A stretch of 64,000 nt of DNA, taken from NCBI GenBank assembly GCA_964187785.1, contig OZ076409.1, positions 17,796,001 to 17,860,000 on the forward strand, given 5' to 3'. Of this stretch, positions 1 to 29,355 are shown piece by piece (position 1 is the stretch's first letter; every line of letters begins with the position of its first letter). Origin of the DNA: Amphiscolops sp. MND2022. Its lineage: Eukaryota. The notes under the pieces are model-generated. The model made no database searches, had not been told where the DNA came from, and saw only the letters and a program-made list of their open reading frames with translations. The translations under genes were made by a program, and so were the position numbers.

Positions 1-1072
1 CTTTGAACACTTTTATCTAGAGCTATCTGTTACTGCTACACTCATTTCTTCAAGAGTAGGTAGAGTAAATTTGACATTAAGCCAAAGAACGTCAAGGAAA
101 TAAATAATTTGAGAGCGGAATATTTAAATCAGCTGTTTGGACTAGTGGAAATTTCGGACACTTTTTGGACTGCCTTTTTTGTGTCCTGTTGTTCGGTACT
201 CGGCTCTTGGCTCTTTTCTGCTCCCACCCCAACCACCAAAATTTTCGAAAGTAAATTTCCTTCAAAATGTCACTAATTCTACATTTAAAACTTTTGGTGA
301 TGGGGGGGTGCAGAAAAGATCCTTTGAACACTTTTATCTAGAGCTATCTGTTACTGCTACACTCATTTCTTCAAGAGTAGGTACAGTAAATTTGACATTA
401 AGCCAACGAACGTCAAGGAAATGAATAATTTGAGAGCGGAATATTTAAATCAGCTGTTTGGACTAGTGGAAATTTCGGACACTTTTTGGACTGCCTTTTT
501 TGTGTCCTGTTGTTCGGTACTCGGCTCTTGGCTCTTTTCTGCTCCCAGCCCAACCACCAAAATTTTCGAAAATAAATTTCCTTCAAAATGTCTTTAATTC
601 TACATTTAAAACTTTTGGTGATGGGGGGGGCAGAAAAGATCCTTTGAACACTTTTATCTAGAGCTATCTGTTACTGCTACACTCATTTCTTCAAGAGTAG
701 GTAGAGTAAATTTGACATTAAGCCAAAGAACGTCAAGGAAATAAATAATTTGAGAGCGGAATATTTAAATCAGCTGTTTGGACTAGTGGAAATTTCGGAC
801 ACTTTTTGGACTGCCTTTTTTGTGTCCTGTTGTTCGGTACTCGGCTCTTGGCTCTTTTCTGCTCCCAGCCCAACCACCAAAATTTTCGAAAATAAATTTC
901 CTTCAAAATGTCACTAATTCTACATTTAAAACTTTTGGTGATGGGGGGGGGCAGAAAAGATCCTTTGAACACTTTTATCTAGAGTTATCTGTTACTGCTA
1001 CACTCATTTCTTCAAGAGTAGGTAGAGTAAATTTGACATTAAGCCAAAGAACGTCAAGGAAATAAATAATTT
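1..1072. repeat. Tandem repeat, ~320-bp unit, >=3.3 copies (runs off the window start)
   Basis: CTTTGAACACTTTTATCTAGAG recurs at 1, 322, 642 and 963; units nearly identical, and the ORF track repeats accordingly. Confidence 0.97.
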
Positions 1073-3741: not shown

Positions 3742-4061
3742 TTTAGACGTTATTTCACCAGAATACGGTTATTTTAGACATTATTCAAGTAAAATACAGT
3801 GTTTTTAGGTCCTATTCTACCAAAATAGAGTGATTTTAGACGTTATTCCACAAATATAGTGATTTTAGACGGTATTCCACAAAGATAGTGATTTTTACGT
3901 TATTCTACCAGAATACGGTAATTTTAGACGTTATTCTACCAAAATACGGTGATTTCAGACGTTATTCCACATACTAGTGATTTTAAACGTTAATCTACCA
4001 AAATACGGTGATTTCAGACGTTAATCCAATGAAATGTACTATTTAGGTCTTTTTCTACCAG
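3742..4061. repeat. Degenerate ~30-bp minisatellite
   Basis: About ten copies of a consensus TTTTAGACGTTATTCTACCAAAATACGGTGA. Confidence 0.9.
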
Positions 4062-5704
4062 AAGTGATCAGAAATCAATGGCCCGAAATTTGACTGAACT
4101 TCTTGAATTAGAGTTTCTTCTTTCCGAAGATTCTGTTCATTTTTTCCTCCGAAAACACCAAATTTTTCAACTCAAGCAAAAAACTTAAAGATAAATGCTC
4201 ACAAAAACCGCTGTTTGTCCTGTCCGTTAGTTTGTCTGATTCTCAGAAGTTTTTTGGCGCTGAAAAAGTTTGAAAAAAATTGATATTTCAACCAATCAAA
4301 ACAGCCTCATTTCGATATTCCGTTCTAAAGTAGTTCTCTCAAAAAAGCTGTGTAGAAGTGTATTATTGAAATGTTTTTGTTTTTCCAAACCCAAAAAGTG
4401 ATGAATATTGCCTATTCCAACACTTTTCATGCAAAAAAGTGTTTTTCCACCGAAAAAATTTCCAGTTGAACGAATATGTTTAATACACTGGCCTTCGTTA
4501 AATATTTGTTTGTCATATTATAGCGTCTGTGCTTACAAAATTTGAGGTATTGCTCGCAAAAACTTGCAAAATTTGGCGGGTGTTTTTTAAATTTCCTTGA
4601 TGTTGCTTTGGAAACCCGCCAAGTTGTAGAAAAATCTTGATAAATACCTGAAAAATTAGTGACGCAGCATGAGAATACTGAGCATGAAAACTTCGTCAAG
4701 CAGCTCCCAGAAACCTAATAAGATTGCTTTCCTTTCTATAAAAGCATGTAAAAGTTTAGGGCACTTTCCACTAAGGCAGTTGAAAGTTGCTCTTTAGATT
4801 TTATAGCGGAAAAAACTTGTGCTGAAATAGGGGCCTTTTTATACAATTTTAGCTTGTTCCAAACGTCAATTTCTGCTTTTGGACCATATTATCAAGAAAT
4901 TAGGGTAATTTTTTTGCCTGAAGGGTCCAAACAATTGTAGAGAAAATCCTCTAAGTATTTACATTCATATATTCTCTTATTAGTGAAATATTTTTATTCA
5001 AGAACAATATGTGCTTTCGTGTTGGGGGGGGTGTTAATTCCTAACAAAGTGTACCTGAGGTGGGGGGGGGCTTTGAAATAGGTGACATTATGCTAAAATA
5101 CTTTTTATGAATTCCTAGTAAACTGTAAATCACACTATTATGAGACGTCTGTCAAATAGTGTGATTTAGACTAGGAGGAATTCATAATAGCTGCAGGTAC
5201 TATTTTGAGACTATTGAGACTACTATTTTTCAATATTTTCACATAATTTAACGCGTGGGAGAGTGGTTGTGCAAAAAGATCCACTGTATTATATCATTCA
5301 CCGTATCGCAGTATTTGTGGAGGCAAATTTGTAGAGCACAAATCTTTTATATCGAAGTTCATCTGAAGAATTTTTCAAGCTTTTCACTTTGAGGACTTCT
5401 TTACTTTGGGCTCAACTTTCCGGCTTTTCTGTTCACCTTTTCTCATTGTATTGTAGTATCTTTTTGAAGGTTGATGCCACACATTTGTTCACAGAAATGT
5501 CTATTATTTGGCATTTTCACGAAATATGAACAGGGCAAGGAAAAACGAAGAATTTGTTTCATTGGCAGTTTGTTCCTTAAAAAAACTGGGTCTTTTTCAT
5601 TTTCCCACCACACCAGAGATTTTTTGTTATCTTAACTGGGAGTGCTTTTTTGTTAATCTGGTCAGCCCGAACCCACTGTACATTAGTACACTAATTACTT
5701 CCAG

Positions 5705-10220: not shown

Positions 10221-10757
10221 AGGTCCTTGCTAGGAACTAGGATTCAAATATCGTGCAGGGCTAAGTGTGTTCATGTTTACAAAGATTTTTCCCCTTTGGA
10301 TCTGTGTGCTCTGTTTGAAGCTTTTCTCCAAACTATTTTGAAGTTTTCTGTTATCTGGAGTTAATAACTGGAATCAACCCATACGACAACAGGTTGATCA
10401 TACTCTGCCACAATAAAGAAAAGCTGATTCCAGGCTGATCATACACTGGACCATAAAGGTTTATGGTTCCAGATTGACCATACTCTGGACCATATATGGT
10501 TCAGTCTGTGATTAACCTGTTTCCATATACTATGTTCAACATGATTTCATGAAACATTACAGACTCAAATATGGTTCAGTTTATGATCCGTATGGTTCCA
10601 TGAATAGAAATTTAGCATAACGTAGTCAAAAAACCAACCAAAATGCCGATACAGTGGCAAAACTGAAAACAAGGTCGCAATCATCAATTTTTGGCAGCTT
10701 CTGCTGAATTATTCGTAGTTCTCCAAAGACTCGAAATTCCACAGCAAAGTGGGTACT

Positions 10758-11793
10758 TGTCAGAACGAGTCACGTCCGGGTTGTTAACGATGTTAAGTCC
10801 AATACATTCACTAGTAGATGATGAGATCTTCTCGGTTAATGCCATCACAATGCTCGTTAAGTCGCTAATTTGCCTATTCATTTCCATGAAACGTTGGTCG
10901 ACTGAACTCGAGTAAGGATTTTGTCTGCTGTTGATAATATCTCCACTATCAAACTCATTCATCTGGTTTCTCGACAAAACTTCCGGAAAGCTGATCTCAC
11001 TTTCGTTATCACTGTTCTGTTCCATTCTGCTGGAACTTGCTGCATAACTGTCTACGTACTGTGATCTCGTATTGACCATGCTCGGTTCTTTAGTAAGACT
11101 TTTGAGTTTTTTAGGTTTATTGGTTAAGTTGAAGGAGAAGAATTACAAGTTTGTACGTTAATGATGTAAGCAACACTACGTTGGCTGAAGGTAAATTGTA
11201 CTGATGGTATTTCAACAATTGTTATTTTCTGCACAATGCTGGTCACGCGTCTACGTCACGTGACCGTTTTAACCAATGATATTGCTCTATTGATTAGGTG
11301 TTAATTGGTGCGTCCTGCTGGTCGCAACGCAAATGGCTTTTTGTACGAAATATAGCACCAATATGTTGCCATGGTTACGTGAGTCATCTATCATCTTGGT
11401 AAACCAATTCAACTTTAAGATGATGGCGACATACCATCATTGCACGTAATTCTTCAGGTTACTGGTAAAGCTAAATATGGTGGAAGCACTTGTACACTGA
11501 GTATAAATATGATGAACGCACTTGTACGTAGAGTACAATGATTTTGTACTTTTGTACGTTAACTACACGTTGGGAAAAGAATTGCCGATGATGGGTTAAG
11601 CCCGTCATTGTTCAGTAGTAATTCATGGTTATTGAAATATCAGGCATATTGCATTTAACTGAGTTGTTTATTGTTTAGAATGTTTTTTATCAGTTTCATT
11701 GTTGTATTCTCTTTGTATCAACCACTGTCCAAACTTGATGTAGTGGTATTGACAACGTTGTCTCTCGATTTAATTCATGCTTCCGGCATGACA
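10758..11793 (-). repeat. 3' LTR (1036 bp)
   Basis: TGTCA...TGACA termini; direct repeat of 28076-29118 differing by roughly a dozen substitutions and one small indel block (counted by eye); adjacent to the PPT. Confidence 0.95.
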
Positions 11794-11805: not shown

Positions 11806-12784
11806 AAAAGAAAGAATGAATTGCAGGGGTATTCGGGGGGCTGGTAGGGGAGTGGTGTGGTCAATGTAACAGCGTCGATTATGCTGAAAATGGTAGCTGT
11901 TTAACGGCGTGAAGAAACTATTCAGCAGACGTGGTGATATCAACTGCATTGGAGTTGCTCATTCGGTTCAGTGCTGCAACGACAGTGCTATTCCGTTCTG
12001 TAGTGGCAAGCGAGAAGGAATAATTGTGTTCGTGTACTCGGATATCCGCTTCGGTTGAGAGTAAATAGTCGACTGATGTGGTGATGACGGCCACGTCATC
12101 CATTCGTGCGCATTGAAGGGAGAGTATTAGTAGGTAAATTAACCGGAAATGAATGAAACGTGGAAGCGTGATCAATCATTCGGGTGATCAATGTGGTAGT
12201 TCGTGAGTAATCACGGCTTCGTGCACTAAACATATTTCCTCTTCGTCGCTGCCAAATACGAGGTTGAAGTCACTGACAGTTTAGTTTACTGTTATCGTTA
12301 GCGTCGATTGGTTGAATGTTTGTATATTGCGGTCTACCGGGTGGAAACATTGGCATTGATTAAATCAAGAGAATTTCATGTAAATTTCCTGTATTAGGGT
12401 GTTCAGCTCAACTGGGTGATTTTCTATCTGATCGTAATTAATCAGTACTTTGATTGCGAAAACTAGTTGGCGTTCATGTAAGCGGCTTTTTTCCTCTTGT
12501 TTAGGATAATCAGGGCATTGTACAGTAAAATGCAATCTTTTTGAATCGAACTGCGTTGTTCTTTGGAGGTTGTGGTGTAGTAAATTGGAACTTCGGGCCA
12601 CTCTGTCTGAGTCCCTTTGAGTTTGATATTATCTTCGGAATTAAATAACGTGGTTGATCAAGTCACGACATCCATCGGTGAAGATGTTGAGGCCTGGTAG
12701 ATCGCATTTTGTATTGCCACAGATTGAATTCTTTGTATTTTACTTTAATTTGCCGTGTGTATTGTCGTGGAAGTTGTATCTTCA

Positions 12785-15700
12785 ATGGAGGCAGCTGGAG
12801 AAGATGTATCCACTGTTGTGTTGGCTGCTGAAGGTGTTTTGGTCGATTTTGCAAACTTGAGTCATTCATCTGGAGAGCAGGGTTTACAGGCGTCAGCTGA
12901 GGAGATGCTAGCAAGAGAGTCGGAATCCGTATGTTGTCAGTTCGCTCAACGTCTAAATGCTGCCAACATAGAAACTGCTACCTCCCTGCTGGAAATTGCG
13001 TTGTCTCACGAATTTCGTAAAAGACTTCACTTTTATAATTTTCATGTGTTGTATCAGCAACGTGTGTGACTCTTCAAGGCAATTGAGTTTAACATGGTTA
13101 CTGCGCTGGTTTGAAGGCAGGCCGATGTCGTTAAGTTAAGGACTTCACGGGAACTATTGCCTTGGGTGGACGGTTTGCCAGTTTGCTCACTACTTGCGTA
13201 TCGTTATTGAGACTAGTATACTTTCTGTTACAGAAGAGCTGAATTTGGTCGACATTGTTGGCGTATTGCGCTGTATGCTCCACCCGAATGAGCCGTCATC
13301 AGATTCGTCCGCTGTCGGAACGTTTGAAGCCAGTTTGAGGGCTTACCTCGTCTCTCGCAAAGGTAAGTAATCAGTTATCGTATATTACTTGGTGGTTGTT
13401 GTGATAATCTATCAATTCCACAAGTCACGTCGTGGGGAGGTTTTTGGCTGTGAGATGCCATTAGGGGCTGAGCAGAGCATGCTATTTTGATGTAGCCTCG
13501 TCATCTGGGTTGATTTGTTTCAGGTGTTACGGTCAGTGGTTGTCTGTCCCTTAGTGACCTCAGAGCAGCGCTTTGTCAACTGGAGAAAGAATTGGGTCAG
13601 ATCGTTAAGGCTACAGTGGGGCTCGGTACTGTCGGGGCTATCGCTGTTGACGACTTTGTTGTGCGTATCAAGGCGGCACTATGTGATGTAGTTGGTACAG
13701 CGGCCATGCAAACCTCTACTGTCATGGAAGATGTGCCTGTGTTGCCAACGTCCTCCAGTCTGGCTCCACTAGTGCCTGGGTCAAGTCAGTCAGATATCTC
13801 CGTCTCTAGTCGTCAGGGATCCGTGATGCCTTCGCTCTTTGGGGACGTCCAGTCTGGTGTTCCTTCCAGTCTGCAAACTGCGTCTGCTACTAAGCCTGGT
13901 AAAAACTCATAAGATCATGTGAGGGGTTTTAGTTTACAAGCTTTCTAAGACTACGCTTATGTACTAAGAACTTTAGGTAACTACTGAAATTTTTTTTGAG
14001 TTTGCGGTTGTGTTTTAGTTCGATCACGGAACACTGAAATCCTCGTAGTTCGTGTCGGGGGTGGTCAGGACGATTGTGGGGTTCCCGCGGCACAAACTTG
14101 TTGTGGACGGGTTCGATAGATGCTTGCTGTGTCGTGTGGATCCCAGCATCGCCGGGCGTGGTCTCTCCTCGTTGTGAGACCATTGGAAGGGGGTCGAACA
14201 TACGAGGCTTGAGCAGAAGTACCGTATCATGACCCAGAAGCCATTGCTGGACAAATCGTGTCGTGCTGTCAGTGCGGAAGAAGGTCGACGTATACGTCGT
14301 GAACGCATGTCCGAGCCGCCTGTGTATCTGGAGCCGGAGTTAAGTTTGACCGTTGACGAAAGAATCGCCATAGAGGAAGCCGAGGAAGCTGAGGGACAAC
14401 GGCCTCAGTTAGCTGCTGGAAGTGTCAACTATCTGTGGTTGAGTAACTTCATCAACAGTTTCGTGAACGTGGTTTTCTTCGGTGCTGTTTTGCGGCTAGT
14501 GGACTCATGGCGGGACTGTATGGCTGCTGAAATGCGTTTCGAGTGCAGGACTTTGGCTTACCCACAATGTCAGGTAGTATTTCGTTCAGTGCGGTATATA
14601 TTTTTTTGGCAATATTTTGTTAGTTATTTGCTTTTTCATCTCAAGCTACCATATAGTAGTTGTTACTACGTAATTTTCGGTTTTTGTGTTTCCTCTTTTG
14701 TTTTGTTTTTGTTTCTGGCTCATGATGTTTACGTGTGGTGGTATTGGGTACATTTTTGTTTTGCAGAGCTTGGTGTTGTATGGACTATACCCGTACGTTG
14801 TGGAACAACTGGACTGGCTCTTAGAGAACAGTACATGTGTCGGTGTCAGTGTGTTTCGCTGTGGTTCTTGATGGCGCTGTGAATGTCACATCGTCAGTGA
14901 GCATAGTGTTGCGTCAGTTGTCATCGCCCTAGTCGTTGACAGTGCAGGATGGGAGAAGCAACTGCTCAGGAATGTCGTTCCCATTCTCGCATGTTTGAAA
15001 GGCAGGGATCAGTTGACCACTGTGGTTGTGGAAGGAGACGCCTTGGTTGGCAAAGCATTGGCCGCTACAATTGCTCCAAAAACTCCCTTCGTGACTGGAA
15101 TGGTTACTCAGACGACTGTGTTCGAAGAAATTCGCAGGCAGTTTCTAATCGAGTTCTCTGCTCTGGATCCGCTGAGTATACTGGAGTATTTTCGCATTCG
15201 CCTGATATCCGTTGTCCAAGAACGCTTCTTAGATCGATTGCCGCATTTACGAGAAGTAAGTATTTACTGTGTATAGAGAAGGCTTTTGTTTGTAACTCAC
15301 TTCCTCTTTTGTGGTGTTCTTTCTTTGAGATTGTGCTCTTTACTCTTGTCCTGTGCTTTTGTTATGTGAAAGGAGGTGTTCTAGTAGTGTTTTGTTTTGC
15401 AGTATGTACGCTATGGAGGAAGTGACGTCGCTCAGTTGGCCAAGGTGTGCACTGAAATAGTTGAATACTGGCACGATCTAGCCTTGTATTTCGGGACGCA
15501 TCGACTTAATGTGACTTCAGAGTTGCTGGTGATTACGCCTTTGGAGAAGCAGGTCTTTGACGAAGCTATGGTTCGGCCGCAGTTTGCTGTACTCGGCGTG
15601 GTGTTGGATCTGAGTTAGTCTAGGCTATTCGTATCCTACTGAGTCGTATTTGATTTTTTCTCTTTTTTTCTAGTTCTCAGTGACTCCTCGTTGTCTCGCC

Positions 15701-17163
15701 TTTTTTGTTTTGTTTTTTTTTTGTTTTTCTTTGAAATTAGGGCTGATAGCTTCGTAACTATAACTGGTTTTTGTTGGATTGATCTTTTTATAACCGTGAT
15801 TGACGTCGTTTTGTTTCAGTGGTGAAGTACTGTACTCGACTTTGTGGGCAAGGACGGGACCGTCATTCAGTCGTGGAGCGTGAACTTGCGCATTTTATTC
15901 GTGGGTTGATGCAGTTCGTGTACCCGTCGTCTGTTATTCCGGCTGCCTACGACGTGACCGCTTTGTTAAAGCCAGTGGATCTCGAATGATGTGGATGCGG
16001 ATCTTTACCGTTTACATTTCGGGCAGTACTTTCGCTTTGATATCAGTACCCAACTGCCTTATTTCTATAAATCGGTTCAAAAGTTGTTGGTTGGGCTGTG
16101 TACCGGATTGACGCGTATGTGGCAACGAGTGTGGGCTGAGTACTTCAGTTTTACTCCTTTGGACACTGATTTGATACACAGTGGTTCCGACGACCGGCGC
16201 ACCGACGCGCTTGTAGAAACCTTTGCTGTTCTGACCGATCGCGGCTTACTTGACTTGGGTTACGGAGGAGCAGTGCAGCAGGAGTATATGGAAGTAACGC
16301 AATACTTCAAGAGGCGTTGGTCGGCTTTGCAAGAAGGGGTGCCTGTTGTGGACGATGTAATTGCTATGTGGATGTCGTACCCGTATTGGGATCGAAAACA
16401 GCATTTACGGCGCGTATTGGATGTAGTATTCGGAATAGTTGTGGTGAGTCCTTACGTTGCCGATTTCGTGGACGATTCTCAGACAGCTCTGGATTCAGAT
16501 ACTTTGGTATCTAAATTGCACTTCGTGAGGAGCTGGTTCCGTTATTCATTTGCGGCACGGACGCGACGGAATCTCCAAGGGTTGCTGCGCGTTACTGACT
16601 CAAGTGACATGTTGGAATCGCGTTTATCGGATGAGGTCCTAGCAAAACCTTGGGACCAATTGCTCAAAGTTGGCTTGGATACGACATTGGCTAGCTGTGA
16701 ATCTGTTTTGTCTAACGATCAGAAATCAACTGTTGTTCCTGCGGTGGATGATTATCGTTCAAACGTGTTAGCGCAGCTCAGTGCGTTAGATAAAGAACCT
16801 GCCAGTCCTGCTCGTGGTCCCTCAAGTTCGAAAGGAAAACGCTCTGCTGAGACATCCAAAGCTAAAACGGCCTGTACGCAGTCGGCGGTGAAGCTACAGA
16901 ATCCTGTGAGTACACCTGTGCGTCGTTCTGGTGCTAAGAAAAATTCGTCGCGGGGCCAAGGCTCTTCGACTCGAATTGGCATTGGACGAAGGACCGGAGG
17001 AAAACCGCGTGGTGCTAAAACTTTGAACCTGTCTACTTGTTTTAGCAGTTCTGTGTCGCACGACGTAAAGCAGTCTGTTGGTAAAGGAAAGAGTGTGACT
17101 GTTAAGAGGAAGGCTCGACGAACTGTTCTCGAGTCTTCAGATGGTGTTTCGGATGAGTATTAA
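12785..17163 (+). pseudogene. Antisense multi-exon gene inside the retrotransposon, hAT-transposase-like, ~1150 codons; exons ~12785-13016, 13058-13172, 13234-13362, 13524-13898, 14019-14573, 14767-15255, 15403-15613, 15820-17163
   Basis: GT-AG introns with pyrimidine tracts (e.g. AAG|GTAAGT 13362, TTTCAG| 13523, GAA|GTAAGT 15255, TTGCAG| 15402); five of seven junctions are directly phase-compatible and two need a nearby frameshift. C-x2-C-x16-H-x5-H finger at 14121-14201. This copy has three in-frame TGA stops and about three frameshifts. Confidence 0.8.
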
Positions 17164-17579: not shown

Positions 17580-20500
17580 GAATCATCAGTAAGAACAAAG
17601 ACGTCACAACTTAATTGTCAGGTAAAGGTGACGACTGCATGTAACTGTCCTTAAGGAAGAGTTTTTTCTTTTCTTTTTTTTCCTTTCAGTTCATTGGGAA
17701 AGTTGTTTGCCGTCGCAAAAACCCATACAAAACTAACACCGAATCCACTTGCTAAAGAGCAAGCTTCATCTATCTGAATGTTTGACCAACCACACAGACG
17801 CGCTTTTGATGACGCACCCACACAGCCGAACCACATCATGGTTATTCGGGGCGGAAGTGTGAAACTAGGTTCTGGTGACGTAACTTAAACGAATCGGCTA
17901 ATTCTTTTACATTCTCGTTTGTGGGCTGTTATGTTTGCAAAAGCGACGTAATTTAGTTGATTCAGAGTTGGTGGTTACGGAATTGCAAAGCAATTCCTTT
18001 GAAGGCGTGTGGTTGGAGATTTTCGTGAATTGCATAAATTAGTGGTTCACTTGCACGTGTTTTACATGTACTTAGTAAGTTCCGGTTAGGTTGATGTGGT
18101 GCATATGACTGCATTACATGTATTTACTTTCGCGCTCAGCTGTCTCGGTAGAGAGTAACAATTTACTCTGCCAGTAAAACTCGGGTCTGCAGGACAGTGA
18201 GTATCAGTCCTCACTGAATGGTGTAAAGTGAACTGAGTAATTCGATGGCATGGTTGTTACATGTGGTGATGTAGACAACATTCAGTTAAATGCATGTATT
18301 TTTTATTTATGGTAAGATTGACGTGGTATGCGTGGCAGCGTTAGGTGTTTCTTTTCGTTCATTCCGCTGGTGGAATAGAGTGAAACGTTAAATAACACGT
18401 AGCGACGCGGTGTGTGGAACTGCGTTACGGATGTCTCGTCTGTCGTTCGTTAGCCGGTTAAGGGCGGAACTATGCTACGGCCGGTAATTTTGGAGAGTGA
18501 TGACAGTGAGTGTCAGTCGTTACTTGTGGTAAAATTCAGTATCGGTGTTTCTCGTGGCTAGGCTACTTGATTTAATTTGCATGTATGTGTTACTAGACTC
18601 CCTTTTTTGGAGAGAGTGTAAAACACTCCCATTTAATTTTTGTATGTGATTTTACTCCCGTGCTGACACGAGGCGAAGCCTACGGATTGTCAGCGAGAGG
18701 AAAAAATAGATGTTATGTTTGCATGAGTTTTAGTTGGCGGGTCTGTCTTGCATGAATTTTAGCAAAGCGGGCTTTACTCGGAGTTCGTGGACTAAAAAAT
18801 CTTGATAGGTTTCCGGTTGCGGCTCGGTTCGGAGGTTGTACCGTGTTGTGTTGTTACGCGATGTTGCGTAGTTACGTTCGTTGTGAGTTGTTGCGGTATG
18901 TTCGGTAACGGATTCGTTTGTTTCTGTAGCAGATTCATTGCTGGTATCGTGATGAACGACTGAATTGTCAGGAGGTTGCTCACAAGTTTCAGGTGGGCTT
19001 TCAGGAACTGGTTGCAGCAGCGTTTGCTCATACGATTTCCGTACGTGCTCATAATAGATGACGCCATGTTCATTGTCGGTTTCTTCTTGATCGATTGTTT
19101 CTGGTGCTGGTTCTACGTACAATTGTTGGGGCATGTGGTCATTGAAGAGCGCTTGATCATCCATTACGATACATATGCCGCAACGAACTAGCAAGATCTT
19201 GCTAGTTCGATTTACAGCCAATGAAAACGCGTTATAATTCTAAATACGCGTTACGCGTTTTGCTCGTTACACTGTGTGATTTGGCGTTACGCGTAGTGAT
19301 CAAACTACAGCAAATGACTACTTTACACTCTCTACAATTACGTACTTTGACTGGTTTCCACTTCACACACGGCGACGGAAATTGATTGTTTTACACTTTA
19401 ACCTGGTACACAATTTGACTGGAATTCATTTTGGCAAAGTGTGTACGTTAGTGATTTTGATTAGGATATATGATTATGCCAGCACTCTTTACTAATTTAT
19501 AAGTTACTAATAGGTTACCTAAGTTATACATCGTTGGCACTAGAGTTGATGGGGACATATCTCAGGCACGTTTCATACTTTAAAGACGAATCATCAGTAA
19601 GAACAAAGACGTCACAACTTAATTGTCAGGTAAAGGTGACGACTGCATGTAACTGTCCTTAAGGAAGAGTTTTTTCTTTTCTTTTTTTTCCTTTCAGTTC
19701 ATTGGGAAAGTTGTTTGCCGTCGCAAAAACCCATACAAAACTAACACCGAATCCACTTGCTAAAGAGCAAGCTTCATCTATCTGAATGTTTGACCAACCA
19801 CACAGACGCGCTTTTGATGACGCACCCACACAGCCGAACCACATCATAGTTATTCGGGGCGGAAGTGTGAAACTAGGTTCTGGTGACGTAACTTAAACGA
19901 ATCGGCTAATTCTTTTACATTCTCGTTTGTGGGCTGTTATGTTTGCAAAAGCGACGTAATTTAGTTGATTCAGAGTTGGTGGTTACGGAATTGCAAAGCA
20001 ATTCCTTTGAAGGCGTGTGGTTGGAGATTTTCGTGAATTGCATAAATTAGTGGTTCACTTGCACGTGTTTTACATGTACTTAGTAAGTTCCGGTTAGGTT
20101 GATGTGGTGCATATGACTGCATTACATGTATTTACTTTCGCGCTCAGCTGTCTCGGTAGAGAGTAACAATTTACTCTGCCAGTAAAACTCGGGTCTGCAG
20201 GACAGTGAGTATCAGTCCTCACTGAATGGTGTAAAGTGAACTGAGTAATTCGATGGCATGGTTGTTACATGTGGTGATGTAGACAACATTCAGTTAAATG
20301 CATGTATTTTTTATTTATGGTAAGATTGACGTGGTATGCGTGGCAGCGTTAGGTGTTTCTTTTCGTTCATTCCGCTGGTGGAATAGAGTGAAACGTTAAA
20401 TAACACGTAGCGACGCGGTGTGTGGAACTGCGTTACGGATGTCTCGTCTGTCGTTCGTTAGCCGGTTAAGGGCGGAACTATGCTACGGCCGGTAATTTTG

Positions 20501-21596
20501 GAGAGTGATGACAGTGAGTGTCAGTCGTTACTTGTGGTAAAATTCAGTATCGGTGTTTCTCGTGGCTAGGCTACTTGATTTAATTTGCATGTATGTGTTA
20601 CTAGACTCCCTTTTTTTGGAGAGAGTGTAAAACACTCCCATTTAATTTTTGTATGTGATTTTACTCCCGTGCTGACACGAGGCGAAGCCTACGGATTGTC
20701 AGCGAGAGGAAAAAATAGATGTTATGTTTGCATGAGTTTTAGTTGGCGGGTCTGTCTTGCATGAATTTTAGCAAAGCGGGCTTTACTCGGAGTTCGTGGA
20801 CTAAAAAATCTTGATAGGTTTCCGGTTGCGGCTCGGTTCGGAGGTTGTACCGTGATGTTTTGTTACGCGATGTTGCGTAGTTACGTTCGTTGTGAGTTGT
20901 TACGGTATGTTCGGTAAAGGATTCGTTTGTTTCTGTAGCAGATTCATTGCTGGTATCGTGATGAACGACTGAATTGTCAGGAGGTTGCTCACAAGTTTCA
21001 GGTGGGCTTTCAGGAACTGGTTGCAGCAGCGTTTGCTCATACGATTTCCGTACGTGCTCATAATAGATGACTCCATGTTCATTGTCGGTTTCTTCTTGAT
21101 CGATTGTTTCTGGTGCTGGTTCTACGTACAAATGTTGGGGCATGTGGTCATTGAAGAGCGCTTGATCATCCATTACGATACATATGCCGCAACGAACTAG
21201 CAAGATCTTGCTAGTTCGATTTACAGCCAATGAAAACGCGTTATAATTCTAAATACGCGTTACGCATTTTGCTCGTTACACTGTGTGATTTGGCGTTACG
21301 CGTAGTGATCAAACTACAGCAAATGACTACTTTACACTCTCTACAATTACGTACTTTGACTGGTTTCCATTTCACACACGGCGACGGAAATTGATTGTTT
21401 TACACTTTAACCTGGTACACAATTTGACTGGAATTCATTTTGGCAAAGTGTGTACGTTAGTGATTTTGATTAGGATATATGATTATGCCAGCACTCTTTA
21501 CTAATTTATAAGTTACTAATAAGTTACCTAAGTTATACATCGTTGGCACTAGAGTTGATGGGGACATATCTCAGGCACGTTTCATACTTTAGAGTC
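17580..21596. repeat. Tandem duplication of a ~2008-bp unit (17580-19587, 19588-21596)
   Basis: Near-identical copies both starting GAATCATCAGTAAG; duplicated 62-aa and 163-aa ORFs in the ORF track. Confidence 0.97.
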
Positions 21597-24500
21597 GTTT
21601 TATTTCTATTTTATTTCTATTCGAGCACGTCGTGATATTTCTATTTGCTATTTTACTATAATTCATCAAAAATCCATCAGCTAATTTGCTGACAGCATCC
21701 TTTAGCGAATTTCATAAAGTTTATCGCATTGACTAATTAACAGCATTAAACATTGACTAATTTACGTGGTAGATAGCTCTAAGTGCTCGAAAAATGGGTT
21801 CTAGTCAAACATTGACTAGTTTACGTGGTAGATAGCTCTAAGTACTCGAAAAGTGAATTCTAGTCAAACATTGACTAATTTACGCTTTATACACGTTACG
21901 GAATTGAGCCAATTGTAGGTTGAAAATCTTGACTGGTTTCTACTTTTCTCTAATTACGCTCAATGACCAAAATCCGCAAATTCTGATTACACTGTGCATC
22001 AAAATTCACGATTAACACACTACTCTGTTTGACTAGAATACGGTTCGTTCTCGTTTTACGGAAAATACACTTTACACTTGATGATAAAGTCCACTTTTGC
22101 GGCATATGTATCGTAATGTCGACCGCATCGGGATCAGCGAACAAGCGATTTGAGTCTTCTTTAATGTCCGGTATTGGTGCGTTCGGTGTGAAAGGACGTA
22201 ATCGCACCCTATGCACGCACTGTGTTCGGAAAGTGCCGACTTTCCTGATTATGTAGTTAAAGTTTGTCAGTACTTTAATTACTTTGAAAGGACCTTCCCA
22301 TTTGAAGTCATTGAAGCAAACCATGTCGGACTGTGTTGTGAGTTTGGGATTAAGCAGGAATGTGTAGTCGTTGACCTTTATTGGTAATGCTTGGGCTTTA
22401 CGGTCGTAGTACTTTTTGTACTTGTGCTATGCCTGCAGTATGTTGTCGTTGACTTGTTGGTACTTGTCGTTCACCTGGTCGACTAATCTCGTTATGTCAG
22501 TTTCCGTGGTTTCACATTTCAAGGGGTTGTCGAATTTGAGGTCTAGTGCGTTAAACGGAACTCTGCCCTGGAAGACTTCGCTTGGAGTGCACTTGAGTGA
22601 TTGATGGTAGGTTGTGTTATGAGCCATTACCGCGAGGTTAACGTACCTGTCCCATTGGGGGGAGTCGACGGAAATGTTAATCTTCAGAATCTGTTTCAGA
22701 TTTTGGTGGGAACTCTCCACCATCCCTATGGTTTGGGCATGCTTTACAGTAGCGTGATCGGTTTTGATTCCGGCAGTTTTCATTATTTCGTTCATGAAGT
22801 TGGATGTGAAAGCCGTGCCATTGTCAGTGATAATTGTCTTCGGGACGTAGACGTGTTGGGTGAATATTTGCATGAGTGCTTTCACCAACGATTTAGTGTC
22901 TGGTTTTCGGATCGGCACAGCGAACAAATACCGCGACAAGTAGTCGCACGCCGTCAGGATGTGCGTATATTCGTTTGAGTTATGTAGTTCGTCTACCAAA
23001 TCGATTTCCAGTACGTCTTCCGGACCGTTGCAGGGGTCGTAGATTTTTTCCAGAGGAGGCGTTAGTCGTTTCGGATTAACAGGTTTTGCTTTGATGCACT
23101 CAATACAGTTACTTACGTATTTTGACACGTGTTCGCTCAGGCTTGGTATGTAATAACGCTTGCGGAGTTCTACCAACATTTTTGATGCCCCAGGGTGTCC
23201 CCGCATGGGGTCGCCATGCATTGTCCTGATTATGAGCATAGTAGTTTCTGGAGGTACTACTTTTTGTTTGAGTAGAATTCCGCCAGTGTTATCAAAGAAG
23301 TTCCTATACAACACTTTGTTGACTCTTCAAGTCTTTTTTTAATTTTTACCAGTTTTTGAAAAAAGGAACTAGTAAAGTTAACGTGGTTTGGTAGTGGTTC
23401 GTTGTTCGTTAAAATGCGAACCATTTTTTGGACGTCTTGGTTACTTAACTGATCTTGGACGATTTGTGATTCCCCTTGCGGGCATACCTGATTTACTGAG
23501 TTGGGGTGGTGACGTCTGGTAAACCTCGTCAGTATGATGGAAGGGGTGTCTTCTGCCAGAACGGGTTCAAGGTGTCGGCTGATGATCTGAATCATCTTGA
23601 GACGTTCGTCGTCATGTGACTGATGGTTGTTCGCCATTGAGTTTAGCAAAGTTCGCATCTTTGTGAAATCGTCTGCTGGACCAGTGGTTTCAGGCTGATG
23701 TGTAGTGGGTGTCGCTACATCGGATTGCTGTTGGTCCGGGTCGTAGTTTTCTTCGTCCTCGTCCTGTTTTGGGGTTTTGGCCGCAAGATCTATCTCGATG
23801 TGGTGGACTGGGATCTGGTCATTCAATTTCAAGTGAATTCTATCTTCAGGATTAATATCGAGTCGGGACAAGTAATCTGCAGCAGGGTTCTCGACTCCAG
23901 GGACGTGGGCGAGAACAAAGTCAAATTGAAGTGCTTGGTCGCAATGGTTCCACAGTTTGGGTGGGATTCATTTCGACTAGAAAAAACGGGTCAGTGATTT
24001 GTTGTCCGTCATCACGATTGTGGGTTTTTTGACTCCCCACAGTATATGAGCAAATTCGTCGAAGGCGAAGTGCATTGCGAGGAATTCGTTAGCATACATG
24101 GTCAATGACATTTGACCTTCAGTGAATCGTTGCGAGCCGAATGCTACAGGGGCGTACGTCTTCTTCTGTCCATCATTGGCTTCGGTGTAGTCTTCAATGA
24201 GGAGCACGTTCCCTGCTGCGTGTTCGCTCGCATCACACATGATGACCAGTTGCTTGTCTGGTAGTGGTAGTCGAAGAGATAGTTTTGCAGCCTGCGCCAG
24301 GTTCTGATTAACGTCGAAGATTGCGTCCCTGTGAACCTGCGTCTTTCTGTAGAAATTTGTACAGAGGTACGAGCTTTTCTGCCAACATCCGTATGTACTG
24401 TCTGTAAAATTGTACAAATCCGATGTAGCGTTGTAGTGATTTGACTGACGTTGGTGTTTTCAGGTTGTTGAGGAAATTGTCGATCTTGTCCTCAAGTGGT

Positions 24501-26229
24501 GCGATACCTTTGGTAGTGATGCTTCTACCCAAGCACTCGATTTTTGGGTGGCCAAAGGCGCAGTTGGACATCGACAGCTTTAGTCCTGCCTTCTGTATCT
24601 GCTGGAAAACTGCTTCGATGTTGATTATCATTTCGTCCACATTGTTGGCCGCGATCCCAATGTTGTCGACATATTTGGCACATTTGTCTGCTTTTACTAG
24701 TGCATCCAGATACTCGCGAATTGTGCTGTTGAACGCAGACAAAGACCTGTTCAACCCTTGCGAAAGTCGGAGGTAAGCAAAGGTTCTGCTGCCAAAATTG
24801 AATGCCAGAAGGTGTATTGACTGTTCGTCGGCCATTTGAAGGCAGTGGTAACCTTGCGAACAGTCAAGCTTGCAAAAGTACTTCTTGCCAGCCATGTGCT
24901 GGGCTGCATCGGCAATTGTCGTTACTGGATGGTTGTCTTTGTTGTAGTCGTTTTTGAGGAGGTGGTTGATCCGCCTCAAGTCGACTAATATCCGAAGTTT
25001 CCCGTTGGGTTTTCGTTGTGCAAATATTGGGGAGGAATATTTGCTGTATGCTAACGTTGTGATGATCCCGTACTCCTGCATCAGGGCGAGTTCAACCAGC
25101 AGGTCATCTTTCAGATTGGTTGGAGTAGGTAAACTCTGGGCGTACACAGGATCATCGTGTTTGGGTGTCAGCTTGATTTTGAAATCGGTGTTGATGCCGA
25201 TATCAAGACGATGTCTAGCAAATATCGTGTGGTATTTGACGAGCAGTTCTTCGATCCTCTGTTGCTCGTGCTCAGTGAGGATCGAGTTGTCCCAGCTGAA
25301 ATTTTTGAGGAACGCCTGGCGTTGTTCGTCATCACATGTCGGGTTGAGTTTTTCAGCTTCTCGGAGTTCGATGAGTTGGTCGTGGATGCGTCTTTCTATT
25401 TTATTTAGCTTGTCAGGATCGTCACATGCTTCGGGCATCGGGAACCATCGTTTATCATTTGTGGCACTGGGATCCTGGAACAATTGGTTGATCACGGCTG
25501 CTTCATCAGGGAATTTAGTGATCAACGTCAGCTGCTCGTTAGTCATTGGCTGAATGTTTTTGGCTTGGTTTGGCGTAAGTATTCGGAAGAATGCGATTAT
25601 GCTGTTCTGGGGTATCGTTATTGCGTGGTCCATGTGGTTGGTGATTTGGACGTGGGCCTGTTGGTCCTTGATTTCGGACATTGATGGAGACACTAGCAAT
25701 TCAGTCTTTCGTTCAAAGGCTGGGAACGCCTCTATTGTGCCTGTCACTGTTCCAATGTTCTTGTCTGTTGTAGCAAGCACAAAGATTTGTTGTCCGGGCG
25801 AGATGGTTGTCTTTGGGTTGTTCTGAGTTCCAACATCTGCAGTTTGAATTTCCCATTTGGCGGTTTTAGTTGGAGGGTTGTTTCTTGGAATCGCACAATG
25901 TTATTTGCAAGGTCCAGAGTAACAGAGTATTTTTTAAAGAAGGACATTCCGATGAGGATGTTTCCCATTGTTGGTAAGATCATGAATGTATCTTCGAATA
26001 TTTTCCCTCCAATGAAAAAACGAAGAAGCACCTGTTTTCTCACCAGAACGATGTTTCCGTTGGCTATTTGGACTTTGAAGTCCGGTGCTGGATATTCCTC
26101 TAACTGGGCTGCTGGGTGGGCTTGTAAGATTCGACGTAGTTCGTTCTCAGACATCGTGCTCTGGATTGCTCCAGTGTCCAGTAGCCCTTGATTTTCGTAT
26201 TCCCGGAACTGAAGAGGAACGTAGAGCAT
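20739..26229 (-). pseudogene. pol: pol polyprotein (aspartic protease, RT, RNase H, integrase), frameshifted
   Basis: LLDTGA protease; RT motifs KLDCSQGY and YVDNI (YxDD mutated); RNase H MCDAS; integrase HHCC zinc motif, EIDLV / TDNG / MVES, GPF motif and C-terminal RYNLR; several frameshifts. Confidence 0.95.
21171..22118. mobile_element. Non-autonomous CACTA/CMC-like DNA transposon inserted in the integrase tail
   Basis: Perfect 22-bp TIR CATTACGATACATATGCCGCAA; TC 2-bp TSD (21169-21170, 22119-22120); removing it restores the pol frame (DPDAV-DDQALF). Confidence 0.9.
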
Positions 26230-26728
26230 CTTGTTTCTTCTGTCTAGCTGAAGTGTAGCACTTAATGGTCTAATGTTTGTTGGCTTCGGTGGGTTCCCCG
26301 TTTGGTTTTGTCATTCAGTTCATTCGTCTTTTGTTGTGGGTTTTTGGTTCTGGCCGGGTTCACATTTTCTCGTTGTTGTGGTTTAACTGCGTTTTCTTTC
26401 GGAATGCAATCCTTCGTTGTACAATTGGGGTTGTCGTCTATGAGAGGAAGTATATGGTAGTTGTTTGGCGAGACTTTTTGTACATAGTATTTCGTCGATG
26501 GTTTAGTCTGTTTGTCAGGACGCTGCCAACATCCTGTCATTGCAGTTTCTGAGTAGTAGTGAGTATGAGTTGGTTGTTTGGTGCGCGCACTTTCTGTTTG
26601 GTTGGACTGAGGATGACGTGATATTACATGTTTTTTGAGTTCGTGTCGAACTCATCGTTGTAATCCGTGTCGTAGCAGTCTTTAGCTTCTTCTGGTTGGG
26701 TAGGCTGGCTTGTCGCTTGCGTGGCTTG

Positions 26729-28397
26729 CTAGGATGGCTGATAGTTGTTTTGCGACTGTTTGAACTCACGACGGAATTCGCGATTTTCATTGGTGGACTG
26801 CTTGTCATATGGTACATTTCGGTAAGCCGATGCACCTGGTACCCTGTCTCTGCAATCCCGTGCGGAATGTCCGATCTTGCCACAAATTTGGCATACTAGT
26901 TTGGAGTTGTATCGTGGTTTTTCGGCTTCTTGTTGTTGAGCATTGTTGTTTCCAGGTTGAGGACGTTGTTGTGATTTCTTCGTTATTCCGTTGGCTTCGT
27001 CCCGGAGGCGTTTGCAGCATTCGATCATCTTGTGGCCCAGTATGTTGCAGTATCCTCAATTTCCTTCGAATCTTCGTTTGACTTCTCTTGTGGCGTTCTT
27101 CTCGGTGTTGTTGTGGTTGGGGGCCGGCTGAGCGTTGTTTTGTTTCGGTTGGTAGTTGTAGACCTGGTTAAGTTTTTGCATGTCTGAGGTGCCAGGGAGC
27201 AATTGTGCATATTGGCAACGGCGTTGTACAAACGTCTTGATTTCTTCGACCTTGGCGTTGTGTTTGCCTGCCATGGCAAGTTCATTTTGGATCTGGATTG
27301 GCAGTTTGGCAAACAAAAATGTCTCGGCAATGTCGTTGGCTTTGTCTCCATACGCTTGTTTAGCGAGTTTCTTGTATTTAGTGAGGAAAACGGCAAACGA
27401 CTCCTTCCAGGGGTCGTACCTCATCTGGTCGAATTTATACTTCGATACCTCTCTTAGGTCCTCCTTTGCATACTCTTTGTTGAATGCTTGCAGGACGTCA
27501 TGGAGTGTCGTTTCGGTTGTGATTTTTAGGGTTTGCCAGATTTCTATGGCCTCGTCTCGGAGCAAGCTCTGAAAGTAGTTCAGTTTCTGCTCTTCTGTCA
27601 GTTTATTCGTGTGTGGGCGGAGGTGGTTCTTCAGTAGGTGTTCGAATTCATTATATTTGTCTCGGTTTCCGCGGAAGAGAGGGACTTGAGTTTGGAGGAT
27701 TTTGGGCTGTATCACTCCATCAGTCATTGTTGTCCGTAGATTGTGGATTTCGGTCATGACGTCGTCCATTTGAGGGTCATTGGTGGATGGTGCACGGTTT
27801 CTGGTCTGATTGGTTGCAGGAGTTGGAAGGGTCCTGCGTGGCTGTTGGAGGTTTGGAGTCGGGATTGAGTTCGTGGAGACTCCAAATATGGTTCAGTTTA
27901 TGATCCGTATGGTTCCATGAATAGAAATTTAGCATAACGTAGTCAAAAAACCAACCAAAATGCCGATACAGTGGCAAAACTGAAAACAAGGTCGCAATCA
28001 TCAATTTTTGGCAGCTTCTGCTGAATTATTCGTAGTTCTCCAAAGACTCGAAATTCCACAGCAAACATGGGTACTTTTCAGAACGAGTCACGTCCGGGTT
28101 GTTAACGATGTTAAGTCCGTTACATTCACTAGTAGATGATGAGATCTTCTCGGTTAATGCCATCACAATGCTCGTTAAGTCGCTAATTTGCCTATTCATT
28201 TCCATGAAACGTTGGTCGACTGAACTCGAGTAAGGATTTTGTCTGCTGTTGATAATATCTCCACTATCAAACTCATTCATCTGGTTTCTCGACAAAACTT
28301 CCGGAAAGCTGATCTCACTTTCGTTATCACTGTTCTGTTCCATTCTGCTGGAACTTGCTGCATAACTGTCTACGTACTGTGATCTCGTATTGACCAT
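26729..28397 (-). pseudogene. gag: gag (starts in the 5' LTR; capsid-like region and two CCHC knuckles), interrupted
   Basis: MVNTRSQ start at 28397; capsid-like ORF 27056-27769 stays open upstream to 27892; knuckles (C>*)RYCNILGHKMIEC and CQICGKIGHSARDC. Confidence 0.85.
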
Positions 28398-29118
28398 GCT
28401 CGGTTCTTTAGTAAGACTTTTGAGTTTTTTAAGTTTATTGGTTAAGTTGAAGGAGAAGAATTACAAGTTTGTACGTTAATGATGTAAGCAACACTACGTA
28501 GGCTGAAGGTAAATTGTACTGATGGTATTTCAACAATTGTTATTTTCTGCACAATGCTGGTCACGCGTCTACGTCACGTGACCGTTTTAACCAATGATAT
28601 TGCTCTATTGATTAGGTGTTAATTGGTGCGTCCTGCTGGTCGCAACGCAAATGGCTTTTTGTACGAAATATAGCACCAATATGTTGCCATGGTTACGTGA
28701 GTCATCTATCACCTTGGTAAACCAATTCAACTTTAAGATGATGGCGACATACCATCATTGCACGTAATTCTTCAGGTTACTGGTAAAGCTAAATATGGTG
28801 GAAGCACTTGTACACTGAGTATAAATATGATGAACGCACTTGTACGTAGAGTATAATGATTAAATGATGCTAATTTTTGTACGTTAACTACACGTTGGGA
28901 AAAGAATTGCTGATGATGGGATAAGCCCGTCATTGTTCAGTGGTAATTCATGGTTATTGAAATATCAGGCATATTGCATTTAACTGAGTTGTTTAATGTT
29001 TAGAATGTTTTTTATCAGTTTCATTGTTGTATTTTCTTTGTATCAACCACTGTCTAAACTTGATGTAGTGGTATTGACAACGTTGTCTCTCGATTTAATT
29101 CATGCTTCCGGCATGACA
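28076..29118 (-). repeat. 5' LTR (1043 bp)
   Basis: Direct repeat of 10758-11793; outer end followed by TSD GTACT; inner terminal CA mutated to AA. Confidence 0.95.
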
Positions 29119-29355
29119 GTACTGCTGAACAAAATAATGATTTCCTATTACCTACGGAGTTGCCGAGGAGAATTGTCTGGATATGTATTGTCGTTAACTC
29201 CTCGGAGGAAAAATAATCCAAAAACGATCTTAACGAAGGCGCAGTAGCACTTCGAGATTTTCCGTATTTTAATGCAGGATGTCTTTACAAAAACTTTAGA
29301 GTCCTTTTCGTCCATTTCCAAATACGAAGTAAAGTGACAAAATAATTCAATTGAA

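What the first reader, a model, noticed from the sequence alone, without database searches (positions are those of the whole stretch)
14121..16460. The antisense cargo looks like a catalytically dead hAT transposase captured by a retrotransposon
Seen, in order: a C-x2-C-x16-H-x5-H finger (CLLC...SIAGRGLSSL*DHWKGVEH); SLVLYGLYPYVVEQLDWLLENSTCVGVSVFR; TTVVVEGDALV; EIVEYWHDLALYF; ELAHFIRGLMQFV; FYKSVQKLLVGL...PLDTDLI...AVQQEYMEV...DDVIAMW...HLRRVLDVVFGI. From my recollection of hAT-family consensus (N-terminal Zn finger; Y.I..GLAPY..E.L...fs..fDES; SMDGPNVN; C-terminal dimerization region followed by VERxFS), these blocks are collinear with a hAT transposase. The DES, DG and ERxFS catalytic motifs all appear to be replaced, and there is a ~280-aa N-terminal extension and a Ser/Lys/Arg-rich tail. 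Inference: a class II transposase repurposed by a class I element as a DNA/chromatin-binding factor (anti-silencing, transactivation or target-site tethering), conceptually like the VANC anti-silencing proteins of VANDAL transposons.
Basis: inference. Interest (0 to 1): 0.88.

Follow-up and report, generated by a model that had tools for sequence, protein, structure and literature searches.

The report
Retrotransposon carries a tamed transposase gene
A large family of copy-and-paste retrotransposons carries, on its opposite strand, an intron-containing gene descended from a cut-and-paste transposon enzyme that has kept its DNA-binding finger but appears to have lost its cutting residues, so one kind of mobile element seems to have domesticated another, probably as a regulator.

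Summary
Confirmed, and larger than reported. The blocks are exons of one spliced gene (about 1,110 codons, window 12785-17163), antisense between pol and the 3' LTR of a Ty3/gypsy element. In one lineage 119 of 125 integrase hits have the gene beside them; a second gypsy lineage carries a distant version sharing two intron positions. Pfam, PDB and fold searches did not name it. Profile comparison with one BED-finger DDE transposase family gave collinear hits (pairwise E 2e-7 and 1.4e-9 for the last exon); that family's free elements here have CAGGG ends and 5-bp duplications, like hAT5. The four finger ligands are invariant; no DDE triad, CxxH or RW is conserved, though alignment at those sites is uncertain; no terminal repeats remain. 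Origin about 90%. Function is untested: DNA-binding activator or anti-silencer about 45%, integration tether about 20%. No CpG depletion and no co-variation with the LTR weaken a strict VANC analogy. The window copy is broken. Antisense extra ORFs are known in plant gypsy elements, with unknown origin; my ten literature searches showed no transposase-derived, spliced case.

The parts
10758..11793 (-). 3' LTR of the Ty3/gypsy element; target-site duplication gtact at 10753-10757
12090..12111 (+). conserved two-part motif (12 bp plus 6 bp) in the cargo leader; on the element strand it is complementary to the sequence just after the gag-pol slippery site
12785..13016 (+). cargo exon U1, acidic N-terminus, from the first ATG to a phase-1 donor (start codon inferred)
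13234..13362 (+). cargo exon U2 (junctions read in the window only; tblastn hits in 6 of 10 other copies)
13524..13898 (+). cargo exon U3, helical stretch then Ser/Pro-rich linker, ends at a conserved phase-1 donor
14019..14573 (+). cargo exon A: BED-type finger (14121-14201) and following helical region; broken in this copy near 14030, at 14046 and at 14175
14574..14766 (+). intron A/B, phase 0, same position in both gypsy lineages
14767..15255 (+). cargo exon B: helix and three-stranded sheet corresponding to the start of the RNase H-like core, spans the first and second catalytic Asp positions of the donor family; in-frame stop at 14869 in this copy
15256..15402 (+). intron B/C, phase 0, position differs in the second lineage
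15403..15613 (+). cargo exon C: start of the helical insertion domain, spans the RW position of the donor family
15614..15819 (+). intron C/D, phase 1, same position in both lineages
15820..17163 (+). cargo exon D: rest of insertion domain, C-terminal region spanning the catalytic Glu position, and a basic Ser/Lys/Arg-rich tail (16792-17160, 27 K/R in 123 aa); frame break near 15987 in this copy
17690..17830 (.). non-coding block conserved across subfamilies between cargo and pol (second copy near 19700-19840 through the tandem duplication)
17580..21597 (.). 2-kb tandem duplication (99.4%) of the cargo-pol spacer, with decayed copies of the integrase tail
21950..26310 (-). pol in pieces: protease, reverse transcriptase, RNase H, integrase with GPY/F-type tail
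26630..26636 (-). AAAAAAC heptamer at the gag-pol junction, candidate -1 frameshift site
27056..27892 (-). gag core (broken downstream)
27883..28075 (.). copy of the left host flank (10566-10757) standing where the primer-binding site lies in other copies
28076..29118 (-). 5' LTR; target-site duplication gtact at 29119-29123

Best explanation
A hAT5-like DNA transposon inserted long ago into the 3' region of a Ty3/gypsy element, opposite to gag-pol. It lost its terminal repeats and catalytic residues, gained an acidic N-terminal extension and introns, and became a fixed accessory gene (shown by sequence: homology, selection, linkage; order of events inferred). The introns survive replication through RNA because they lie on the strand opposite to the genomic RNA and so are not spliced from it (follows from established retroelement biology). 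The protein most likely acts in the nucleus in trans: the invariant BED finger binds DNA or chromatin, the dead transposase body serves as an oligomeric scaffold, and the acidic N-terminus recruits activating or anti-silencing machinery to copies of the element, as TnpA does for Spm (inferred; untested). Odds: origin and status as a selected, spliced, dead-transposase gene about 0.9; this particular function about 0.45.
For: Homology: exon A E 3.7e-5, exon B 8.2e-4, exon D 1.3e-4, deepened exon D 2.1e-7 (prob 93.6) against the transposase alignment, collinear, scores 33-65 against at most 25 in 25 column shuffles each (pairwise E-values). Second-lineage exon D prob 96.4, E 1.4e-9. Among 5,144 ORFs and proteins the transposase HMM ranks 10 second-lineage cargo exons next to the true transposases (E 3e-8 to 1e-4), and 59 of 120 family proteins score E<1 with the deepened window-lineage profile against 3 of 120 reversed. 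Finger ligands invariant in 18 of 18 and 8 of 8 complete copies; the finger region is the best conserved part (0.90 against 0.62-0.71). Splicing signals 392 of 405, intron lengths 88-340 nt with all three remainders mod 3 (72, 68, 55 of 195), dN/dS 0.09-0.35. 119 of 125 integrase hits have the cargo tail to tail, none on the same strand. Acidic first exon (15 D/E to 1 K/R in 76 aa) and basic tail. Precedent: catalytically dead transposases recurrently become transcription regulators and TnpA derives from a transposase (bioRxiv 10.64898/2026.08.24.746577, abstract, passages and one section).
Against: No Pfam, PDB or atlas hit supports the homology; models of single exons were weak (pLDDT 59 and 48) and gave only non-specific RNase H-like or actin-like folds, Z <= 7. 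The window lineage on its own reaches only prob 59-61, E about 9e-5 in local mode over 602 columns; the case leans on the second lineage as a bridge. Posterior probabilities at catalytic positions are 0.1-0.76, the second lineage keeps a Glu at the first Asp position (8 of 8) and the window lineage a Glu at the second in 11 of 18, so 'dead' is an inference. CpG observed/expected is 0.8-1.04 in elements, no sign of methylation for a VANC-like factor to undo. Cargo identity tracks the LTR less well than integrase identity does (rho 0.43 against 0.65, largely saturated), which argues against subfamily-specific LTR recognition. No binding, localisation or expression data.
Confidence: 0.45

Rival explanations
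1. Integration tether or nuclear-import helper: the protein binds chromatin with its finger and brings the pre-integration complex to preferred sites.
For: Transposase bodies hold DNA ends and target DNA (established); the finger is almost invariant while the LTR is not, as expected for a host target; basic tail. The second lineage has a long integrase tail yet still keeps the cargo.
Against: Target-site duplications of the copies read show no common sequence; copies lie on all 13 large contigs; cargo and integrase modules are reassorted between subfamilies.
Confidence: 0.2
2. RNA-level or particle role: the protein, or the act of antisense transcription, controls genomic RNA fate or the Gag:Pol ratio.
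For: The cargo leader overlaps a motif complementary to the sequence after the gag-pol slippery site about 11.5 kb away; that duplex is the best of about 570 tested in 12 of 14 copies. Antisense transcription would cover it.
Against: A cis RNA element does not explain purifying selection on about 1,100 codons or an invariant BED finger; the second lineage has the cargo but no such pairing.
Confidence: 0.12
3. Decoy or poison subunit: it titrates host silencing proteins, or blocks resident hAT5-like transposases, without binding its own element.
For: Cargo diverges faster than integrase (40-98% against 65-100%), as in an arms race; free elements of the donor family exist in the genome.
Against: Identity to present donor-family proteins is only about 15%, low for mixed oligomers; only 4 exact motif matches of the donor family in the genome; the finger is conserved rather than diversifying.
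Confidence: 0.12
4. The resemblance to a transposase is limited to the finger or is chance; the gene is a captured host gene or orphan.
Against: Three separate exons and two lineages hit the same family in the right order, with reciprocal searches and reversed controls; canonical hATs used as controls give E 0.26-0.49.
Confidence: 0.07
5. A passenger: a nested, decaying DNA transposon copied along with the retrotransposon, or a still active transposase.
For: The window copy is broken; 22 of 137 cargo hits have no integrase hit beside them; three fetched copies lack pol.
Against: dN/dS 0.09-0.35 with synonymous saturation, fixed exon lengths, conserved splice sites; no terminal repeats or subterminal motif in 15 elements; open cargo frames in copies with LTRs 99.5-100% identical; the pol-less copies keep LTR-derived pieces.
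Confidence: 0.04

Closest known systems
Antisense additional ORFs of plant Ty3/gypsy elements (Grande gene23, RIRE2, Retand TRP28/PF04195); PMC7264820 passages, PMC11963269 passages and Discussion
   Same: Antisense, between pol and the 3' LTR, kept in nearly all recently active copies, proposed nuclear regulatory role.
   Different: Those ORFs are stated to have unknown origin and no similarity to other transposons; here the origin is traceable to a DDE transposase family, the gene has six introns, no PF04195 hit, and the genome appears animal-like (host not identified).
hAT5-type transposases (hAT families with 5-bp target duplications; PMC12730594 passages)
   Same: BED-type finger, collinear profile similarity over about 600 columns; free elements of the matching family here have CAGGG ends and 5-bp duplications (3 of 3).
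   Different: No conserved DDE, CxxH, RW or ERxFS; no terminal repeats; added N-terminal exons; introns where the free element's frame is uninterrupted; moves only inside an LTR element.
TnpA of Spm/CACTA and domesticated dead transposases FAR1, MUSTANG (bioRxiv 10.64898/2026.08.24.746577)
   Same: Transposase-derived protein that lost catalysis and kept DNA binding; candidate regulator.
   Different: TnpA serves its own DNA transposon and FAR1/MUG serve the host; here the beneficiary is a retrotransposon of another class. Regulatory activity is not shown here.
VANC of VANDAL elements
   Same: Element-encoded accessory protein, possible anti-silencing role.
   Different: VANC likely came from a cellular MAIN-related protein (PMC13547354 passage), not from a transposase, and acts on DNA methylation, for which these elements show no CpG depletion.
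Extra ORF3 of bdelloid rotifer LTR elements (DEDDy, GDSL; PMC5408684 passages)
   Same: Animal gypsy-like elements with captured ORFs revealed by profile searches and probably exchanged between mobile elements.
   Different: Those are nucleases or esterases; the passages seen mention no transposase and no introns.

Membership tests
hAT transposase (cargo as a member) | N-terminal BED-type C2H2 finger | tested here: met
   four ligands align at posterior 0.86-1.0 and are invariant in 18 of 18 and 8 of 8 copies; Pfam zf-BED itself does not hit
hAT transposase (cargo as a member) | collinear homology over core and insertion domain | tested here: met
   (against the donor-like family)
hAT transposase (cargo as a member) | DDE catalytic triad | tested here: not met
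   no lineage has three conserved acids at the aligned positions; single Glu substitutions at one site in each lineage; posteriors 0.1-0.76
hAT transposase (cargo as a member) | CxxH and RW motifs | tested here: not met
   invariant in 47 of 47 donor-family proteins, not conserved in either cargo lineage
hAT transposase (cargo as a member) | PF05699 dimerisation domain | tested here: not met
   no hit in cargo exons; also none in 10 donor-family proteins
hAT transposase (cargo as a member) | own terminal inverted repeats and target duplication | tested here: not met
   no end motif, subterminal motif or inverted repeat of 14 nt or more around the cargo in 15 of 15 elements
hAT transposase (cargo as a member) | Hermes-like fold | tested here: inconclusive
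   single-exon models of low confidence; exon B has the helix-three-strand-helix order but matches many folds at Z <= 7
hAT5 group (donor family as a member) | terminal inverted repeats with 5-bp target duplication | tested here: met
   CAGGG ends and 5-bp duplications in 3 of 3 elements whose ends could be read; definition from PMC12730594 passage
hAT5 group (donor family as a member) | hAT motifs D-D-E, CxxH, RW, ERxFS | tested here: met
   that these motifs mark hAT is recalled, not from a call
hAT5 group (donor family as a member) | sequence similarity to canonical hAT transposases | tested here: inconclusive
   E 0.014, 0.037 and 0.18 against three PF05699-positive ORFs, with CxxH and RW in register; no Hermes hit
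hAT5 group (donor family as a member) | placement with Repbase hAT5 references | not testable with these tools
   no Repbase library
Ty3/gypsy LTR retrotransposon (carrier) | TG..CA LTRs, target duplication, PBS, PPT | tested here: met
   PBS replaced in the window copy only among those read in full
Ty3/gypsy LTR retrotransposon (carrier) | domain order protease-RT-RNase H-integrase with GPY/F-type tail | tested here: met
   (gag has a DUF1759 hit, more usual in BEL/Pao by recall; no RT tree against references was run)
antisense aORF class of gypsy elements | [quoted passage not shown] | tested here: met
antisense aORF class of gypsy elements | TRP28 domain (Retand type) | tested here: not met
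   no PF04195 hit
antisense aORF class of gypsy elements | antisense transcription | not testable with these tools
   no run was listed
TnpA/VANC-type anti-silencing factors | sequence-specific binding to cognate elements and loss of silencing marks | not testable with these tools
   indirect only:

The most novel reading that the evidence does not exclude
A class I element domesticated a class II transposase once, before two gypsy lineages with RT only 58% identical split (or passed it between them), turned it into an obligatory intron-gaining transcription or chromatin factor, and couples it to replication control: its antisense leader overlaps an 11.5-kb long-range RNA pairing that gates gag-pol frameshifting. 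This would be transposon-by-transposon domestication and would supply an origin for antisense accessory ORFs in general.
Probability: 0.3. Interest if true: 0.92.

Novelty: new variant of a known kind. Interest (0 to 1): 0.8.

Why it matters
Antisense extra ORFs in gypsy elements are a recognised puzzle: two papers I read state that their origin and function are unknown and that nested insertion lacks support because no similarity to other transposons was found. This family gives a traceable case of exactly that route, in hundreds of copies, many of them young. It extends the 'dead transposase becomes regulator' route from host domestication to domestication by another mobile element. It also shows a gene keeping and changing introns inside a genome that replicates through RNA. 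The high copy number and invariant finger make binding and knockdown tests straightforward once the host is in culture.

Tried and rejected
Pfam scans of window pieces, intact exons and remote homologues: nothing relevant. PDB sequence searches with exon profiles and with the donor family: no transposase. AlphaFold models of exon B (pLDDT 59) and exon D (48) with Foldseek and VIA: non-specific; Hermes not listed, which does not exclude it. ESM atlas: no usable hit. Word-based protein searches for full-length spliced gene models: none for exon D, six unnamed read-through ORFs for exon A. Canonical PF05699 hATs of the genome as donors: rejected, E 0.26-0.49. An early idea that an invariant Glu replaces the second Asp: rejected when further subfamilies showed Gly, Ser or Ala there. 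An early reading of a frameshift in exon B and of LTRs starting at 10566: corrected. The first catalytic-site mapping had a column offset and was redone. RNA runs: none was listed, which is no evidence either way; read mapping was therefore not run. Metagenome and viral contig scans found no relative, so the remote homologues have no genomic context. Rfam: nothing above chance. Earlier scan notes: none. No complex prediction was run.
Full report
Setting. The finding lies inside an LTR retrotransposon on the minus strand. Its LTRs are 10758-11793 and about 28076-29118, flanked by the duplication gtact. Gag, protease, RT, RNase H and integrase follow in Ty3/gypsy order, in pieces. This copy is dead: pol is fragmented, the primer-binding region is replaced by a copy of the left host flank, and 17580-21597 is a tandem duplication. 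The genome is 1.07 Gb and unnamed.

The observation. The peptide blocks are present, in order. A search of the genome with the last block gave 794 candidates; all 150 scored match at E <= 3.2e-68, and further searches reached more subfamilies. Comparing copies shows that the blocks are exons. In 71 copies (8 duplicate loci dropped) the six junction ends of exons A-D carry GT or AG in 392 of 405 readable cases, the 195 introns measured are 88-340 nt with remainders mod 3 of 72, 68 and 55, and exon lengths are fixed; dN/dS is 0.09-0.35 in unsaturated pairs, and most pairs between subfamilies are saturated at synonymous sites. The window copy also has real breaks (near 14030, 14046, 14175, 14869, near 15987).

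Linkage. Of 19 window-lineage copies fetched with 14 kb downstream, 15 have gag or pol of the same family tail to tail (9 of 10, 6 of 9); three of the others are rearranged and keep LTR-derived pieces. For one sub-lineage I compared two genome-wide lists: 119 of the 125 integrase hits at 83% identity or more (of 150 listed) have a cargo hit 1-6 kb away on the opposite strand, 115 of the top 137 cargo hits have an integrase hit, and none lie on the same strand. Copies with LTRs 99.5-100% identical have open cargo exons. A second gypsy lineage (RT 58%, gag 29% identical) carries a distant version: 128 matches listed, and 10 of 10 fetched have integrase tail to tail. The two cargos are homologous (E 2.2e-10 over 612 columns) and share the A/B and C/D intron positions and phases, while the B/C intron differs. 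A profile search of 1.84 billion representatives found 174 relatives at E <= 0.001, all unnamed among those looked up; two of the remote ones have no match above 28-29% in this genome, so the family probably extends to other genomes, context unknown.

Origin. Library searches failed, and single-exon models were too weak to decide. Exons A, B and D hit this family at residues 30-65, 198-296 and 547-725 of the reference, with pairwise E 3.7e-5, 8.2e-4 and 1.3e-4; deepening exon D with 96 remote segments gave E 2.1e-7, prob 93.6; shuffled alignments scored at most 25 and reversed ones at most 24, against 33-65. The second lineage is closer: exon D prob 96.4, E 1.4e-9. In the reverse direction, among 5,144 ORFs and proteins the family HMM ranks ten second-lineage exons beside the true transposases at E 3e-8 to 1e-4, while window-lineage exons appear only at E 0.02-0.1. 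The window lineage alone is therefore moderately supported (prob 59-61 local, 84-95 global) and the second lineage is the bridge. Free elements of the donor family have CAGGG terminal repeats and 5-bp duplications in 3 of 3 readable cases, which fits hAT5 as defined in PMC12730594 (passage). The family is only weakly similar to canonical hATs of the genome (E 0.014-0.18) and the cargo not at all, so 'hAT5-like' rests on motifs and ends.

Dead or alive. The finger ligands are invariant in 18 of 18 and 8 of 8 complete copies. The first Asp has no aligned acid in the window lineage and is Glu in 8 of 8 of the second; the second Asp is Glu in 11 of 18 and absent in the second lineage; the catalytic Glu is variable or absent; CxxH and RW are gone. 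Posteriors at these sites are 0.1-0.76, so loss of catalysis is likely, not proven. No terminal repeat or subterminal motif is left in 15 elements. The free element's frame is uninterrupted across the A/B and B/C positions, so the introns were probably gained after capture (inference). The cargo fails membership of hAT as an active transposase but descends from one.

How it may work. Antisense orientation lets introns pass through reverse transcription unspliced (established logic). Retention in about 95% of integrase-bearing copies with purifying selection means the protein helps the element. Best reading (0.45): a nuclear, trans-acting activator or anti-silencer, from the invariant finger, acidic N-terminus and basic tail and from the precedent of dead transposases and TnpA (bioRxiv 10.64898/2026.08.24.746577; abstract, passages, one section). 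Against a strict VANC analogy: CpG observed/expected is 0.8-1.04 in elements and 0.83-0.92 in flanks; the LTR tracks integrase better than cargo (rho 0.65 against 0.43, much of it saturated, one LTR end possibly misplaced); cargo and pol modules are reassorted; and VANC is reported to derive from a cellular protein (PMC13547354 passage). Any DNA target should be a motif shared across subfamilies, such as the block at 17690-17830 or the motif at 12090, or a host chromatin feature. Rivals: integration tether 0.2, RNA-level role 0.12, decoy 0.12, false homology 0.07, passenger 0.04.

A side result in the leader. The 12-bp plus 6-bp motif at 12090 is complementary, on the element strand, to the sequence right after the AAAAAAC at the gag-pol junction, 11.3-12.0 kb away in full-length copies. 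In 12 of 14 copies this duplex beats every other of 430-585 windows tested; in two it does not. Support from covariation is thin: one shared change keeps a G-U pair, several single-copy changes break pairs. It recalls the 4-kb pairing that drives frameshifting in barley yellow dwarf virus (PMC5009743 passages), but two inverted DNA sites would look the same. The second lineage lacks it.

Comparison and novelty. Antisense ORFs between pol and the 3' LTR are known from plant gypsy elements; PMC7264820 (passages) and PMC11963269 (passages and Discussion) say their origin is unknown and that similarity to other transposons is lacking. Rotifer elements capture nucleases and esterases (PMC5408684 passages). 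Ten searches listed no LTR element with a transposase-derived or spliced antisense gene; subscription papers, Repbase reports and supplements were not seen and may hold such a description. Verdict: a real, selected feature; a new variant of the antisense accessory ORF with a traceable class II origin; function open; interest 0.8.

Noticed in passing
window 12090-12111 and 26590-26636; L031:2124 and L031/L032 13690: Long-range complement between the cargo leader and the sequence after the gag-pol AAAAAAC site, about 11.5 kb apart; candidate long-distance frameshift element, or two inverted DNA sites (contains a CRE/UPRE-like core, recalled).
   Followed up: partly
window 17690-17830 (and 19700-19840): Non-coding block conserved across subfamilies whose cargo is only about 42% identical; no frame open in all copies; RNAalifold finds stems with 4 of 40 pairs showing double changes; no Rfam hit.
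   Followed up: partly
window 28026-28460, minus strand; L143/L144 12343-13800: Gag appears to start inside the 5' LTR and read through the primer-binding site; a coiled-coil-like N-terminus is encoded in both LTRs.
   Followed up: partly
window 27883-28075: A 192-bp copy of the left host flank replaces the primer-binding region next to the 5' LTR, suggesting conversion between the two ends of the insertion.
   Followed up: partly
L135:10281-10813 and L139:10309-10840: pol-less derivatives carry a complete cargo plus an inverted, internally deleted cargo of another subfamily, which could give hairpin RNA.
   Followed up: no
G000:C3:56944982, 56967363, 56989671; G000:C4:68287155-68322120: Tandem arrays of whole elements at regular 22-kb and 17.5-kb spacing.
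   Followed up: no
L101, L103, L104: Internally deleted free elements of the donor-like family with CAGGG ends, AATCAGGGAA subterminal repeats and 5-bp duplications.
   Followed up: yes
window 25500-25900, minus strand: A roughly 150-aa insert between protease and RT with no Pfam hit; resembles decayed dUTPase-like inserts by recall only.
   Followed up: no
window 1-1073; 3741-4063; 49245-49528: A 320-bp tandem repeat, a 31-bp minisatellite and a perfect 284-bp palindrome in the flanks.
   Followed up: no
window 10360-10600: The element sits next to short degenerate repeats of host sequence that look like a repetitive coding or satellite stretch.
   Followed up: no
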